From Dictyostelium discoideum (lineage: Eukaryota): a stretch of 64,000 bases of DNA. The position numbers and the translations under genes were made by a program. Position 1 is the first letter of the stretch, and each line of letters starts with the position of its first letter. Below the pieces are notes generated by a model. The model did not search any database. It worked only from the letters and a program-made list of their open reading frames with translations, and was not told where the DNA came from. The DNA is taken from NCBI GenBank assembly GCA_000004695.1, contig CM000151.3:5120001-5184000 (forward strand), read 5' to 3'. This document shows, in pieces, positions 55,281 to 63,277 of this stretch.

Positions 55281-59844
<4,564 letters not shown>

Positions 59845-60077
59845 AAAATAACAATAACAATAACTATAACCATAAAGAAATAAAAATAAAGAAAAAAGAA
59901 CAAAAAAAAAAAAAAACAAAAAATAAAAAAAAAGAATTAAAAAAATAAAAAAACCTTTACTTTAAAAAAAAAATAAAAAAAACAAATAAATAAATAAAAT
60001 ATTAATCTTTATTTACCCCCAAAAAAAAACACATCTTTTTTTTAAAAGTGAAGTTTCAATATTTTAAGACTTTACCT

Positions 60078-60700
60078 TTAAAAAAAAAAAAAATAAATAA
60101 ATAAAAAATAAAATATTATCAATATTTCTTTTAAACATGCATGTTTTGGAAAAGTGTATGGAATTATGATACCTTTTAAAATGATTTTACCGTCAATGAG
60201 AATTTCGATTTCTTTATTCTCTGAATTGTAAATTATTTTTACACATTTATCAACACCATCATTGATTTCATTGAAACTATTACCCAATGAATATTGATGA
60301 CTAGTTTATAGGGATTGGTTTGGAGTTGGTCTTTGAATAGAATTATGGTTAGAACAAGGATCACCCATTTCTTGATTGCTAAATGTATCAAATTCTATTG
60401 CAATTATACCATTTGCCATTTGATTATAGCCCAACTCACTCCCAGCTTGCTTAATTTCATTAATTCCATTTGTTTGAAGAATAAAAGCAAATCCATCAGC
60501 ACCTCTTCTTGAGACATTAAATGTAAATTCACATTGAAACCCATTATCTATTGTTACTTTTTTTCTACTCCAAATTGAACCAACTTTGCCTTGTAATGAG
60601 GGTGTTAGTTGAATAATCATATCACCACCTTTTTTGTTGGAAATAATTTGGCAGATCCATTTAGTTTATAACCTTTTTCTAAATTATAATTTTCAGAATA
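60078..60700 (-). pseudogene. Inverted, truncated and frameshifted copy of the L-type-lectin gene. It corresponds to about 62103-62690 of the intact gene.
   Basis: Minus-strand ORFs 60306..60620 and 60078..60287 are near-identical to the lectin domain of 61844..62767 but are interrupted. Upstream there is a TGA and an indel. The C-terminus fuses into spacer sequence (KHACLKEILIIFYF...). A plus-oriented remnant of the lectin stop (cagttttaaattaa) sits at about 60692-60706. Confidence 0.7.
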
Positions 60701-60850
60701 ATCAATCATCAGTTTTAAATTAAATAAAAAATTATATGGTTATTGGTTTTTAATAAAATTAGAAAACTTTATTGGAAATTATAATTTAGTTTTTTTTTTT
60801 TTAAATTATTATTTCGTTTTTTTTTTTTTTTTTAATTCTTTTAACTCATA

Positions 60851-61330
60851 GGTATCGCCAGTACCTCAAACAACCTTTTTGTATTCCTTTTAGATTTAAT
60901 TCATCAAGAATTTTTATCATTAATGAGTAAGTTTTTTTTTAAAAAAAAAACAAATTAATAACTCCAATATTATGAATCAGTTACACTAACAATAACAAAA
61001 AATCAACTTCAACTTCAACATTAACATCAACTTCAAACATCATCAATTTTTAATTATAGTTGGTAAAAAGGGTAAAACTGCAATCATTACAAATGTATAT
61101 ATTTTCTTTTTTTATAAAAATAAATAAATAAATAAATAAATAAAAAAAAAGAAAACTAATAAAAACAAAAAAAAAAAAAATTTACATTTAGATATTAGGC
61201 CAGATGAGATTAATGGTAGGTTTATCTCAAGGTCAATACATTTGTGATGTCTATCAACCACAACAATCCCAATGGATTAGATATGATTATTCAACTTTAT
61301 TGAAATAAAAGAACAAGATGATTTATCTAT
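60851..61330 (+). pseudogene. Decayed duplicate of the 3' portion of the USP10-like gene (exon 2-4 fragments with deletions).
   Basis: The segments ggtatcgccagtacctcaaacaacc...gtattccttttagatttaattcatcaagaattttt, ...ttggtaaaaagggtaaaactgcaatcattacaaatgtat... and ...tgtgatgtctatcaaccacaacaatcccaatggattagatatgat... match 58700-59760. Large internal deletions remove any ORF. Confidence 0.7.
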
Positions 61331-61356
61331 TTTATTAAATCAACTTTTTAGTTGGG

Positions 61357-61399
<43 letters not shown>

Positions 61400-61843
61400 A
61401 GAATTAAAACCAAAAAAAACTTTAATTAAAATAATAACAACCATAACCAAAAGAAATGAAAAAAGAACGAAAAAAAAAACAAAAAATAAAAAAAGAATTA
61501 AAACTAAAAAACTTTACTTTTATAAAAAAAAAAAAAATAAATATTTATCTTTATTTATTCCCAAAGAAAAACACCTTTTTTTTAAAAGGCAAAAGTTTAA
61601 ATTTTTATTTGAAAATTTACCTTTAAAAAAAAAAAAGAATATAAAATATTATCAATATTTCTTCTTTTTTTTTTTCCCCCAAGTCCCAAAAAAAAAAAAA
61701 GAAAACTTTTTTTTCTTTTTTTTTTTAGAAATTTAAAATTTTTTTGAAAAAATTATTTTTAGCTTTTAAAACACGTTGGTTAATATTTTTGTTTTTTTTG
61801 TTTAAATATTTTTTTTTTTTTTTTTTAACAAATAAATTTAAAA

Positions 61844-62767
61844 ATGATAGGTGAAAAAAGAAAAAGAATTGAATTAATTAATCTACAAGAAGTTTTGAAA
61901 GGTAGAAAAAGAAATGTGAATAAAGAAAAAGTAACAGTTAAAAAAACCAAATCAAAACCAATAAAAAATTCAAAGTCAGCAATAATAACAACTAAATTCA
62001 GTTGTGTTCCTACTACCGCCATTACTACTAAAAGTCAAAGCAAAAACTTAAAAGCCCCAACAAAAACCAAACCAACAATAGAAAATGAATTTATAAAAGA
62101 AAATGATGATATTGATTATTCTGAAAATTATAATTTAGAAAAAGGTTATAAACTAAATGGATCTGCCCAAATTGTAACAAACAAAGAATGTGGTGATATG
62201 ATTATTCAACTAACACCCTCATTACAAGGCCAAGTTGGTTCAATTTGGAGTAGAAAAAAAGTAACAATAGATAATGGATTTCAATGTGAATTTACATTTA
62301 ATGTCTCAAGAAGAGGTGCTGATGGATTTGCTTTTATTCTTCAAACAAATGGAATTAATGAAATTAAGCAAATTGGGGGTGAGTTGGGCTATAATCAAAT
62401 GGCAAATGGTGTAATTGCAATAGAATTTGATACATTTCATAATCGAGAAATGGGTGATCCTTATTATAACCATATCTCAATACAAAGACCAACTCCAAAC
62501 CAATCCCTATCAACTAATCATCAATATTCGTTGGGTTCTTATCATTCCAATTCAATTAATAATGGTGTTGATCAACGTGTAAAAATAATTTACAATTCAG
62601 AGAATAAAGAAATCGAAATTCTCATTGATGGTACAATCATTTTAAAAGGTATCAAAATTCCATACACTTTTCCTAAATATGCATATTTTGGATTTACTGC
62701 TTCAACAGGAAAGCAAAAACAAATCCATCAAATAAAAGGTTGTAGATTTAATTCAGTTTTAAATTAA
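61844..62767 (+). CDS. L-type (legume/ERGIC-53-like) lectin-domain protein. It has a basic Lys-rich N-terminal region and no obvious signal peptide.
   Basis: Lectin-domain blocks QVGSIWSRKKV, RRGADGFAFILQTNG, GVIAIEFDTFHNREMGDP..HISI, VKIIYNSENKEIEILIDG and YAYFGFTASTGK are present. ERGIC-53/VIP36 and legume lectins carry analogous blocks. Single exon from the ATG at 61844 to the stop at 62765-62767. Confidence 0.7.
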   Translation: MIGEKRKRIELINLQEVLKGRKRNVNKEKVTVKKTKSKPIKNSKSAIITTKFSCVPTTAITTKSQSKNLKAPTKTKPTIENEFIKENDDIDYSENYNLEKGYKLNGSAQIVTNKECGDMIIQLTPSLQGQVGSIWSRKKVTIDNGFQCEFTFNVSRRGADGFAFILQTNGINEIKQIGGELGYNQMANGVIAIEFDTFHNREMGDPYYNHISIQRPTPNQSLSTNHQYSLGSYHSNSINNGVDQRVKIIYNSENKEIEILIDGTIILKGIKIPYTFPKYAYFGFTASTGKQKQIHQIKGCRFNSVLN

Positions 62768-63277
62768 ATTTAATTAAATTAAATAAATAAATAAATTTTA
62801 TGGATAAGTTTTAAATAAATAGAAAACTTTGTTGGGGTTTATAATTTTGTTTTTTTTTTTTTTTATTATTATTTTTTAATTCTTTAAATTCATATTTTAA
62901 AAGCTTTATTAAATTATTATTTATACATATGTTGTGTTTCATTTGTTATAATTTTTCAAAGTTTTAAATTGATTAATTTATTATTTTAATACAATAAAAT
63001 TTTATTATTTATTATTAAATTTTTAATTATCTATTTGTTTGAGTTGATAGTATTATTATATCCAAATAATCTTTACCATAAACAACTACAACTTTCCACA
63101 AATTACCAATTTACAATAAACAAAAAGACCATACTCCGAATAGAAAAAAAAAAGAATATATAATTAAAATCATTTAATGATATAGGATAAAATTTTATTT
63201 AATTATAATTATTTAAAAGTTGTTTGATGTATAACAGAATTTTATTAATGTTTTATTTAAAAAAAAAAATATAAATA

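What the first reader, a model, noticed from the sequence alone, without database searches (positions are those of the whole stretch)
61844..62767. L-type lectin domain fused to a basic Lys-rich N-terminus, apparently without a signal peptide
ERGIC-53/VIP36 and legume lectins are secretory-pathway proteins with signal peptides. This ORF instead begins MIGEKRKRIELINLQEVLKGRKRNVNKEKVTVKKTKSKPIKNSK..., which looks like a nuclear-localisation-like basic region, and then carries a complete ConA-like lectin fold. A cytosolic or nuclear L-type lectin would be unusual. Alternatively, the gene may have an unrecognised upstream signal-peptide exon.
Basis: partly seen in the sequence, partly recalled or inferred. 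Interest (0 to 1): 0.5.

Follow-up and report, generated by a model that had tools for sequence, protein, structure and literature searches.

The report
Signal-peptide-less L-type lectin of Dictyostelium
This is an annotated but unstudied Dictyostelium discoideum gene (DDB_G0275019) for a stand-alone legume-type lectin that lacks a secretion signal and instead has a conserved basic N-terminal motif; this is less odd than it looks, because the same lectin domain already sits on a nuclear/cytosolic enzyme (PNGase) in this amoeba.

Summary
Window 61844-62767(+) is a single-exon 307-aa ORF, D. discoideum AX4 DDB_G0275019 (Q86I39, "hypothetical"). It has three parts. Residues 1-45 are a strongly basic motif. 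Residues 46-95 are a K/T-rich linker modelled at low confidence. Residues 96-307 are a complete L-type lectin domain (PF18483, E 4.6e-33) that keeps every canonical Ca/Mn- and sugar-binding residue.

No ortholog in six Dictyostelium species has an N-terminal hydrophobic segment. Conservation starts at the ATG, and the N-terminal motif is the most constrained part of the protein (dN/dS 0.06-0.27). An upstream signal-peptide exon is therefore unlikely.

The domain is not of the ERGIC-53/VIP36 or plant type. It belongs to a subfamily that forms the C-terminal module of cytosolic peptide:N-glycanase across Amoebozoa, Heterolobosea and early fungi. This includes D. discoideum PNGase, published as nuclear/cytosolic. 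Its nearest relatives are other dictyostelid proteins without a signal peptide.

My best reading is a nucleocytoplasmic, metal-dependent glycan reader, delivered or regulated through its N-terminal motif (bipartite-NLS-like). Localisation, expression and ligand are untested. An upstream tandem copy is a pseudogene. Interest is modest.

The parts
61844..62767 (+). Complete single-exon CDS of DDB_G0275019 (307 aa plus TAA stop)
   Evidence: ORF list. Exact match to XP_643809.1/Q86I39, and called as a single-exon gene in a D. discoideum assembly.
61826..61828 (+). In-frame TAA six codons upstream of the ATG. There is no AG dinucleotide between it and the ATG.
   Evidence: Read directly from the sequence and from the upstream in-frame translation.
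61844..61978 (+). Conserved basic N-terminal motif, aa 1-45 (MIGEKRKRIELINLQEVLKGRKRNVNKEKVTVKKTKSKPIKNSKS). It fits a bipartite-NLS pattern, KR-x12-RKR.
   Evidence: Pattern match. Residues invariant across 7 sequences, including D. purpureum: M1 K5 R6 R8 I9 L11 N13 L14 E16 K22 N24 K34 K36 K41. dN/dS is 0.055 (vs ACTFIR) and 0.27 (vs D. citrinum), the lowest values in the gene.
61979..62128 (+). K/T-rich linker of variable length, aa 46-95, modelled at low confidence
   Evidence: pLDDT below 50. dN/dS 0.83-0.88, with many indels between species.
62129..62764 (+). L-type (ConA-like) lectin domain, aa 96-307
   Evidence: Pfam PF18483, E 4.6e-33. Confident AF2 model. Foldseek hits to 7ELV, legume lectins and ERGIC-53. 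dN/dS 0.41-0.54.
62318..62323 (+). Ala159-Asp160, equivalent to ConA Ala207-Asp208 (the sugar-binding Asp)
   Evidence: phmmer alignment to ConA; the ConA sequence was verified as identical to 1apn_A. D160 is kept in 9/9 family members.
62423..62473 (+). Metal-binding loop EFDTFHNREMGDPYYNH. Equivalences to ConA: E194=E8, D196=D10, F198=Y12, N200=N14, D205=D19, H210=H24.
   Evidence: Ungapped alignment to ConA residues 2-40. E194, D196, N200, D205 and H210 are kept in 9/9 family members and the aromatic at 198 in 8/9.
60133..60706 (-). Inverted, truncated pseudogene copy of the lectin gene. It corresponds to 62111-62688 and lacks both the N-terminal motif and the C-terminus. A 104-aa stretch of it is annotated as DDB_G0275151.
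   Evidence: Inverted repeats I1-I3, 89-93% identical. One frameshift, and a TCA-to-TAA nonsense codon at 60306-60308. Annotation.
60818..61298 (+). Degenerate copy of the 3' part of the upstream ubiquitin-hydrolase gene (source region 58674-59731). It marks the start of the second unit of a roughly 2.1-kb tandem duplication.
   Evidence: Direct repeats D4, D5, D6, D10 and D12, 79-93% identical. The same fragment lies between the two lectin copies in strain ACTFIR.

Best explanation
DDB_G0275019 encodes a soluble, stand-alone L-type lectin that never enters the secretory pathway and acts inside the cell, in the nucleus and/or cytosol.

Shown here:
- Three-part architecture: an N-terminal basic motif, a linker modelled at low confidence, and a canonical lectin domain.
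- No signal peptide or transmembrane segment in any ortholog.
- Full retention of the ConA-type Mn/Ca ligands (E194, D196, N200, D205, H210) and of the sugar-binding Asp160, Gly179 and Asn200.
- The strongest purifying selection falls on the N-terminal motif.
- The nearest relatives are other dictyostelid lectin-domain proteins that lack a signal peptide.

Inferred:
- The N-terminal KRKR-x12-RKR element acts as a bipartite NLS, or as another partner- or degron-type short motif, that delivers or regulates the lectin.
- The flexible linker lets the lectin head reach its ligands.
- The head binds a glycan in a metal-dependent way. Candidate ligands are N-glycans on retrotranslocated glycoproteins, the free oligosaccharides that PNGase releases, or Dictyostelium's cytoplasmic glycans such as the Skp1 glycan. 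The Skp1 suggestion rests on my background knowledge only.

The gene belongs to a young birth-and-death family restricted to group-4 dictyostelids.
For: - Domain and fold.
- Residue mapping to ConA. E194, D196, N200, D205, H210 and D160 are kept in 9/9 family members; the aromatic at 198 and Gly179 in 8/9. In PNGase-type domains the Asn is kept in only 5/26.
- No hydrophobic N-terminus in 7 orthologous sequences.
- Conservation starts at the ATG, and the upstream sequence does not align between species.
- Intact single-exon ORFs with the same motif occur in D. dimigraforme (288 aa) and in non-syntenic D. purpureum (303 aa).
- dN/dS is 0.055-0.27 for the motif, 0.83-0.88 for the linker and 0.41-0.54 for the lectin domain.
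- The sequence matches a bipartite-NLS pattern.
- NJ tree: the family plus D. purpureum (bootstrap 80) groups with the dictyostelid GTPase/MORN-lectin clade (70). It is separate from the dictyostelid PNGase lectin clade (94).
- Cytosolic domain partners of this lectin domain: a transglutaminase/Rad4 PNGase core, and a GTPase domain with MORN repeats.
- DdPNGase carries a legume-lectin domain, and its EYFP fusion is nuclear with less signal in the cytosol (PMC3502110).
Against: - No expression, localisation or binding data exist; no paper in the library names the gene.
- The NLS assignment is only a pattern match. The most conserved residues (I9, L11, N13, L14, E16) lie in what would be the NLS spacer, which is not typical of a bipartite NLS.
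- Canonical L-type lectins need Ca2+ and Mn2+, and free cytosolic Ca2+ is low. Full retention of the metal site could therefore point to an extracellular or lumenal site of action.
- The lectin domain evolves fairly fast (dN/dS 0.4-0.5).
- Copies decay readily: the AX4 and ACTFIR upstream copies are pseudogenes, and the D. firmibasis gene has a frameshift.
- Dictyostelium exports other lectins that lack a signal peptide, such as discoidin I (background knowledge).
Confidence: 0.5

Rival explanations
1. The protein is exported without a signal peptide (for example, by my background knowledge, via multilamellar bodies, the contractile vacuole or lysis, as described for discoidin I and DdCAD-1). 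It then works outside the cell or in phagosomes, where the polycationic tail and the Ca/Mn lectin head bind bacterial or matrix glycans.
For: The metal-binding and sugar-binding set is fully retained, and it fits the Ca2+-rich extracellular milieu better than the cytosol. The specificity loop after STG (aa 290-293) varies between orthologs, and the family shows gene birth and death. Both are typical of proteins that face changing external ligands. There is precedent for exported Dictyostelium lectins without signal peptides (background knowledge, not tested here).
Against: Nothing in the sequence indicates export. The most constrained element is an NLS-like basic motif. The nearest relatives have cytosolic domain partners.
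Confidence: 0.25
2. The gene model is incomplete: an unannotated upstream exon encodes a signal peptide and splices into the start of the ORF, for example at the AG of ATGATAG|GT. The protein would then be a normal secretory L-type lectin.
For: An AG lies just after the ATG in both AX4 and D. purpureum (ATGATAG, ATGGATAG). An acceptor site there cannot be excluded from sequence alone. No transcript data were available.
Against: An in-frame stop lies 6 codons upstream, with no AG before the ATG. The ATG is kept in six species, and conservation begins at it. The upstream sequence is poly-A/T and cannot be aligned between species. Only 242 nt separate the neighbouring gene's stop from the ATG in D. 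dimigraforme. The D. purpureum gene lies among different neighbours yet starts with the same motif, two codons after a stop. Annotators in several genomes call the same start.
Confidence: 0.05
3. The gene is a lineage-specific duplicate on its way to decay. The Lys-rich N-terminus would be translated A-rich DNA with no specific role, and the protein would have little or no function.
For: The neighbouring tandem copy is a pseudogene in AX4 and in ACTFIR, and the D. firmibasis gene carries a frameshift in the assembly. The linker evolves almost neutrally, and the lectin domain has a dN/dS of 0.4-0.5. K-rich sequence arises easily from AAA-rich DNA (inference).
Against: Intact ORFs persist from D. 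discoideum to D. purpureum. All metal and sugar ligands are kept, and 14 N-terminal positions are invariant. dN is clearly below dS for the lectin domain (0.233 against 0.572 versus D. citrinum). The N-terminal motif has a dN/dS of 0.055-0.27.
Confidence: 0.1
4. The lectin fold is used as a protein-binding or scaffolding module rather than a sugar binder, as happens with some ConA-like domains.
For: ConA-like beta-sandwiches are often reused for protein-protein contacts (background knowledge). No binding data exist.
Against: Every residue that defines metal-dependent sugar binding in legume lectins is kept (8-9 of 9 family members at each position). The related PNGase domains have lost the key Asn.
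Confidence: 0.1

Closest known systems
C-terminal legume-lectin domain of D. discoideum peptide:N-glycanase (DDB_G0268168; Gosain et al. 2012, PMC3502110) and its orthologs in Amoebozoa, Heterolobosea, Mucoromycota/chytrids and Ichthyosporea
   Same: It has the same Pfam domain (PF18483) and occurs in the same organism. It has no signal peptide, and the protein has been shown experimentally to be nuclear/cytosolic. Its presumed role is glycan binding.
   Different: The PNGase domain is fused to a transglutaminase/Rad4 catalytic core, whereas the window protein stands alone behind a basic motif. The PNGase domains form a separate clade (bootstrap 94). Most have lost the Asn equivalent to ConA Asn14 (kept in 5/26 against 9/9 here). 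They share about 36% identity with the window domain.
Dictyostelid G-domain/MORN/lectin proteins (e.g. D. citrinum ACTFIV_010544, D. discoideum ACTFIW_000450) and short relatives P0131 and P0158
   Same: These are the nearest non-orthologous lectin domains (40% identity, 116 bits per domain; sister clade with bootstrap 70). They have no signal peptide, and Glu, Asp, Asn and His of the metal/sugar site are kept.
   Different: They have quite different N-terminal parts: a GTPase domain, MORN repeats, or an LFFKVFRN-type start. None carries the KRKRIELINL motif.
Legume-lectin domain of Methanocaldococcus jannaschii (PDB 7ELV/7EXO)
   Same: It is the closest solved structure by sequence (E 6.7e-20) and by fold (TM 0.83 on the target, 29% identity).
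   Different: It is archaeal and is one domain taken from another protein. It has no equivalent of the basic N-terminal motif.
Plant legume lectins (ConA, PAL, pea lectin; PF00139)
   Same: They share the fold and the same spacing of the metal ligands (E-x-D-x-aromatic-x-N-x4-D-x4-H). They also share the Ala-Asp and Gly sugar-binding elements.
   Different: The plant proteins are made with signal peptides and are vacuolar or secreted. They score lower than PF18483 against the window protein (85.9 against 115.3 bits). The specificity loop differs (ConA Leu99-Tyr100 against Lys290-Gln291).
ERGIC-53 / VIP36 cargo receptors (PF03388)
   Same: They share the ConA-like fold (Foldseek E about 1e-11).
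   Different: This is the weakest of the three Pfam matches (48 bits). Those proteins are type I membrane proteins with a signal peptide, a stalk, a transmembrane segment and sorting motifs. None of these features is present here.
Other intracellular or signal-peptide-less lectins: discoidin I and comitin in Dictyostelium, and the F-box lectins Fbs1/FBXO2 in mammals (background knowledge, not tested here)
   Same: They are functional analogues: soluble lectins made without a signal peptide, some of which read N-glycans in the cytosol.
   Different: Their folds are unrelated (discoidin/H-type, bulb-type, and the Fbs1 sugar-binding domain).

Membership tests
L-type lectin domain superfamily (PF18483 Lectin_L-type_dom / ConA-like) | Profile match above the curated threshold | tested here: met
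   PF18483 scores 115.3 bits against a cut-off of 78.3, E 4.6e-33, aa 96-298 covering profile positions 4-212 of 215.
L-type lectin domain superfamily (PF18483 Lectin_L-type_dom / ConA-like) | Beta-sandwich (jelly-roll) ConA-like fold | tested here: met
   The AF2 model of aa 100-307 has mostly pLDDT 85-95 and is all-beta. Foldseek against the PDB gives 7ELV at TM 0.83 on the target; 463 hits have E<=0.001, and every one of the 50 listed is an L-type lectin.
L-type lectin domain superfamily (PF18483 Lectin_L-type_dom / ConA-like) | Mn2+/Ca2+ ligands equivalent to ConA Glu8, Asp10, Tyr12, Asn14, Asp19 and His24 | tested here: met
   E194, D196, F198, N200, D205 and H210 align without gaps. Family conservation is 9/9, except 8/9 for the aromatic position.
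L-type lectin domain superfamily (PF18483 Lectin_L-type_dom / ConA-like) | Sugar-binding Asp after Ala (ConA Ala207-Asp208), backbone Gly (ConA Arg228 position) and Asn | tested here: met
   A159-D160 in GADGFAF, G179 in GGELGY, and N200. The cis-peptide geometry itself could not be tested.
L-type lectin domain superfamily (PF18483 Lectin_L-type_dom / ConA-like) | Demonstrated metal-dependent carbohydrate binding | not testable with these tools
   This needs recombinant protein, a glycan array and EDTA controls.
ERGIC-53/VIP36 cargo-receptor family (PF03388) | N-terminal signal peptide | tested here: not met
   The maximum 8-residue hydropathy in aa 1-70 is 1.20 and the longest apolar run is 3 residues. 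All orthologs give the same result.
ERGIC-53/VIP36 cargo-receptor family (PF03388) | C-terminal stalk, transmembrane segment and cytosolic sorting motif | tested here: not met
   The protein ends at the lectin domain (aa 307). The maximum 19-residue hydropathy is 1.02, and it lies in a beta-strand.
ERGIC-53/VIP36 cargo-receptor family (PF03388) | PF03388 is the best-fitting profile | tested here: not met
   PF03388 scores 48.1 bits, against 115.3 for PF18483 and 85.9 for PF00139.
Cytosolic PNGase lectin module | Fusion to a transglutaminase/Rad4 PNGase core | tested here: not met
   No other domain is found in the 307-aa protein. PNGase orthologs carry PF01841 and PF03835.
Cytosolic PNGase lectin module | The lectin domain nests within the PNGase lectin clade | tested here: not met
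   In the NJ tree the dictyostelid PNGase domains form their own clade (bootstrap 94), and the window family groups elsewhere. Deeper nodes are unresolved.
Dictyostelid signal-peptide-less lectin-domain clade (G-domain/MORN-lectin proteins, P0131, P0158) | Sister-group relation of the lectin domains | tested here: inconclusive
   The grouping is recovered with bootstrap 70; adding H. album PPL_05203 lowers it to 43. The method was distance-based NJ only.
Classical bipartite nuclear localisation signal | Two basic clusters separated by 10-12 residues | tested here: met
   K7-R8, then 12 residues, then R21-K22-R23. D. purpureum has a 13-residue spacer. This is a pattern match only.
Classical bipartite nuclear localisation signal | Importin-dependent nuclear import | not testable with these tools
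   This needs GFP fusion and mutagenesis.

The most novel reading that the evidence does not exclude
DDB_G0275019 would be the first stand-alone nucleocytoplasmic L-type lectin. It would be a canonical Ca/Mn sugar binder taken into the nucleus, and perhaps turned over, through a conserved N-terminal KRxRIxLxNLxE motif. That motif fits a bipartite NLS. From memory, it also fits a D-box-like R-x-x-L-x-x-L degron followed by a lysine-rich acceptor stretch. The protein would read an intracellular glycan, such as the free N-glycans or deglycosylation intermediates produced by the nuclear/cytosolic PNGase, or the Skp1 hydroxyproline-linked glycan.
Probability: 0.2. Interest if true: 0.6.

Novelty: new variant of a known kind. 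Interest (0 to 1): 0.35.

Why it matters
Very few lectins are known to work in the nucleus or cytosol, and none of them is a stand-alone legume-type lectin. If this protein does act there, it would be a simple, genetically tractable reader of intracellular glycans. The model organism already has a nuclear/cytosolic PNGase carrying the same domain, and it also has well-studied cytoplasmic glycosylation.

This finding also corrects a common assumption. The L-type lectin fold is not confined to the secretory pathway. One whole subfamily of it is the glycan-binding module of cytosolic PNGase in many protists and early fungi, in the position where animals use the PAW domain.

As it stands, the gene is an annotated hypothetical protein with no data, so its value is that of a lead.

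Tried and rejected
- **Literature.** Searches for DDB_G0275019, DDB_G0275151, Q86I39 and XP_643809 found nothing.
- **N-terminus against solved structures.** aa 1-96 gave no hit at E<=10. Pfam gave only a sub-threshold DUF1737 match.
- **AlphaFold database fold search.** The afdb50 library was not available.
- **Recent transfer from bacteria.** Bacterial multi-domain surface proteins head the representative search, but only because several domains add up. Per domain, the best scores go to dictyostelid proteins: 116, 107 and 103 bits, against 90 or less for the bacterial-type, signal-peptide-bearing singles. The tree also puts the family with dictyostelid sequences. The deep origin remains unresolved.
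- **Hyper-polymorphic locus.** The protein is only 86-88% identical to the copy in another "D. discoideum" strain. This was rejected because the flanking genes are similarly diverged (92-95% against 90%). That strain is simply a distant lineage.
- **Frameshift in the D. firmibasis N-terminal motif.** I suspected this from the alignment. It was rejected because the motif is in frame with the annotated start. The real frameshift lies later, inside the lectin domain.
- **Bootstrap runs.** A first run with Biopython timed out. A second produced NaNs from an uncapped distance. The numbers reported come from the corrected run.
- **ARAGORN tRNA-Ile at 60335-60425(-).** It is 91 nt long and lies inside the lectin pseudogene, so I treat it as a false positive.
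Full report
**What is there**

The window is very AT-rich (about 14-31% G+C in 2-kb windows). The ORF at 61844-62767(+) translates to 307 aa. Its sequence is identical to XP_643809.1 / Q86I39, "hypothetical protein DDB_G0275019" of Dictyostelium discoideum AX4. It is called as a single-exon gene between a ubiquitin C-terminal hydrolase gene and a MOZ/SAS acetyltransferase gene. No paper in the library mentions the gene.

**Lectin domain**

- Pfam gives PF18483 (Lectin_L-type_dom) at 115.3 bits, E 4.6e-33, aa 96-298. PF00139 (legume lectin) scores 85.9 bits and PF03388 (ERGIC-53/VIP36-like) only 48.1 bits.
- The best solved relative by sequence is the legume-lectin domain of Methanocaldococcus jannaschii, 7ELV, at E 6.7e-20.
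- AlphaFold2 on the ortholog alignment gives a confident all-beta domain for aa 100-307. Residues 1-99 fall below pLDDT 50.
- Foldseek returns 7ELV (TM 0.83 on the target), then plant lectins, ERGIC-53 and VIP36.
Aligning the window protein to it maps E194, D196, F198, N200, D205 and H210 onto ConA E8, D10, Y12, N14, D19 and H24 without gaps. A159-D160 maps onto A207-D208.
- From the GGELGY/GRLLGL correspondence, G179 sits at the position of the backbone sugar ligand (Arg228 in ConA). The roles of these ConA residues are established knowledge.
- E194, D196, N200, D205, H210 and D160 are kept in 9 of 9 family members. The aromatic at 198 and G179 are kept in 8 of 9.
This looks like a working metal-dependent lectin.

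**N-terminus and the signal-peptide question**

- Residues 1-80 contain 22 K+R against 5 D+E. The sequence matches KR-x12-RKR.
- No window of the first 70 residues approaches signal-peptide hydrophobicity in AX4, in other D. discoideum lineages, or in D. citrinum, D. dimigraforme, D. firmibasis or D. purpureum. The maximum 8-residue Kyte-Doolittle mean is 1.24 or less and the longest apolar run is 3 residues or fewer. Bacterial homologs with obvious signal peptides score 2.8-3.3.
- An in-frame TAA lies six codons upstream, and no AG occurs between it and the ATG.
- In a five-species alignment of the 5' region, sequence identity begins at the ATG. A 3-nt insertion in D. citrinum keeps the frame. 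The upstream A/T tracts do not align between species.
- In D. dimigraforme only 242 nt separate the upstream gene's stop from the ATG.
- Reading the DNA directly shows that several annotated models are poor, but the underlying ORFs agree. D. dimigraforme has one uninterrupted 288-aa ORF. D. firmibasis has the same MIGEKRKRIELINL start upstream of its annotated ATG. D. purpureum has an uninterrupted 303-aa ORF that starts MDSKRQRIQLFNLEEL, two codons after a stop and among quite different neighbours.
- Fourteen N-terminal positions are invariant across all seven sequences.
- Nei-Gojobori estimates give dN/dS of 0.055 and 0.27 for aa 1-45, 0.88 and 0.83 for the linker, and 0.54 and 0.41 for the lectin domain. 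The first value of each pair is against strain ACTFIR and the second against D. citrinum.
- The basic motif is thus real coding sequence and the most constrained part of the protein. An upstream signal-peptide exon is unlikely, although only transcript data can exclude an acceptor at ATGATAG|GT.

A full HMMER scan with the lectin domain found 4877 relatives. By summed score the top hits are bacterial multi-domain surface proteins. Per domain, however, the best are dictyostelid proteins. Looking these up led to three groups.

1. A D. citrinum 987-aa protein has a GTPase domain, a MORN repeat and a C-terminal lectin domain, and no signal peptide. It belongs to a group-4 G-domain family in which some members end in this lectin domain.
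2. Short N-rich proteins P0131 and P0158, and H. album PPL_05203.
3. Tieghemostelium DLAC_04945, a ubiquitin-like/transglutaminase/Rad4 protein. This is the cytosolic peptide:N-glycanase, and it ends in PF18483.

A search with the Tieghemostelium protein showed the PNGase+PF18483 architecture in D. discoideum (DDB_G0268168) and in other dictyostelids. It also occurs in Physarum, Pelomyxa, Arcella, Naegleria, Acrasis, Mucoromycota, chytrids and ichthyosporeans. Animal PNGases carry PAW (PF04721) in the same position. Gosain et al. 2012 (PMC3502110) already described the legume-lectin domain of DdPNGase. They found the EYFP fusion mostly nuclear, with less in the cytosol.

An NJ tree of 73 lectin domains gives these bootstrap values:

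| Grouping | Bootstrap |
|---|---|
| DDB_G0275019 family | 100 |
| Family plus D. purpureum | 80 |
| The above plus the GTPase/MORN-lectin clade | 70 |
| Dictyostelid PNGase domains, as a separate clade | 94 |

Deeper nodes are unresolved, so I cannot say whether the subfamily came into eukaryotes vertically or by transfer.

One difference is notable. The PNGase domains have mostly lost the Asn equivalent to ConA Asn14 (kept in 5 of 26), whereas this family keeps it in 9 of 9.

**Local history**

- The gene is the second unit of a roughly 2.1-kb tandem duplication, 58674-60817 and 60818-62885. Each unit carried the 3' part of the hydrolase gene, the spacer and the lectin gene.
- In AX4 the first lectin copy (60133-60706) is inverted. 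It lacks both ends, and it has a frameshift and a TCA-to-TAA stop. Its annotation as the 104-aa protein DDB_G0275151 is an artefact.
- In strain ACTFIR the first copy is in direct orientation but has two frameshifts that the annotation hides as introns.
- Strain ACTFIW is annotated with two adjacent full-length proteins, P0014 (303 aa) and P0004 (308 aa). I did not read its DNA.
- D. firmibasis has a frameshift inside the lectin domain in the assembly.
- This is a young, group-4-restricted birth-and-death family. The 10% divergence between AX4 and ACTFIR is matched by the flanking genes, so the locus is not unusually polymorphic.

**How it most likely works**

- Shown: a soluble protein with no route into the ER, a canonical lectin head, a flexible linker and a constrained basic N-terminal motif. 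Its nearest relatives sit in cytosolic architectures.
- Inferred: it acts in the nucleus and/or cytosol as a metal-dependent glycan reader. The N-terminal motif would serve as a bipartite NLS or another short interaction or degron motif. From memory, R8-x-x-L11-x-x-L14 also fits the APC/C D-box pattern and is followed by a lysine-rich stretch. That is a lead, not a test.
- Candidate ligands are N-glycans on retrotranslocated proteins, free oligosaccharides released by PNGase, or cytoplasmic glycans such as that on Skp1 (background knowledge).
- I put this reading at about 0.5.
- The main rival (0.25) is export without a signal peptide, as for discoidin I, followed by action on bacterial or matrix glycans. 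The intact Ca/Mn site and the variable specificity loop fit that reading well.
- A missed signal-peptide exon (0.05), functional decay (0.1) and a non-sugar-binding role (0.1) are less likely.

**Verdict**

The gene is annotated but uncharacterised. Its architecture, a conserved basic motif joined to a stand-alone canonical L-type lectin, is a new variant within a known kind, namely the signal-peptide-less PF18483 proteins of Amoebozoa. Interest is modest (0.35).

Noticed in passing
window 58674-62885: A roughly 2.1-kb tandem duplication. Each unit holds the 3' part of the ubiquitin-hydrolase gene, the spacer and the lectin gene. The two units have decayed in complementary ways: unit 1 keeps the hydrolase and loses the lectin, and unit 2 does the reverse. 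The lectin segment of unit 1 is also inverted in AX4, but it is in direct orientation in strain ACTFIR.
   Followed up: partly
window 60306-60620 (-): The annotated 104-aa protein DDB_G0275151 (Q86I38) is a fragment of a lectin pseudogene. It ends at a TCA-to-TAA nonsense codon, follows a frameshift, and lacks both ends of the domain. The protein entry is probably an annotation artefact.
   Followed up: yes
window 60335-60425 (-): ARAGORN calls a 91-nt tRNA-Ile(GAT) here, inside the lectin pseudogene coding sequence. It is very probably a false positive.
   Followed up: no
L006:4001-4909, L004:6001-6864, L005:5917 onward, L002:4632-5520: The public gene models of the orthologs are unreliable. 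D. purpureum DICPUDRAFT_147075 is annotated as 177 aa, but the DNA holds an uninterrupted 303-aa ORF. D. dimigraforme has a spurious 3' intron. D. firmibasis starts at an internal ATG and bridges a frameshift with an intron. ACTFIR_006967 hides two frameshifts as introns.
   Followed up: yes
proteins P0087, P0187, P0180-P0226 (not in the window): Cytosolic PNGase carries a C-terminal PF18483 L-type lectin domain in Amoebozoa, Heterolobosea, Mucoromycota/chytrids and Ichthyosporea. Animals have the PAW domain in the same position. Most of these lectin domains have replaced the Asn equivalent to ConA Asn14 with Thr or Ser.
   Followed up: partly
proteins P0036, P0297-P0312 (not in the window): Group-4 Dictyostelium has a family of roughly 750-1150-aa G-domain proteins with a MORN repeat. 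Their C-terminus is variable, and only some members (e.g. ACTFIV_010544, ACTFIW_000450, RB653_005831) end in an L-type lectin domain. The AX4 relative found (DDB_G0280583) has no lectin domain on record.
   Followed up: no
window 55330-55990 and 57370-57560: Long triplet-repeat (low-complexity) tracts lie inside the upstream ubiquitin-hydrolase gene. They coincide with the strong GC/AT skew seen at 56-58 kb.
   Followed up: no
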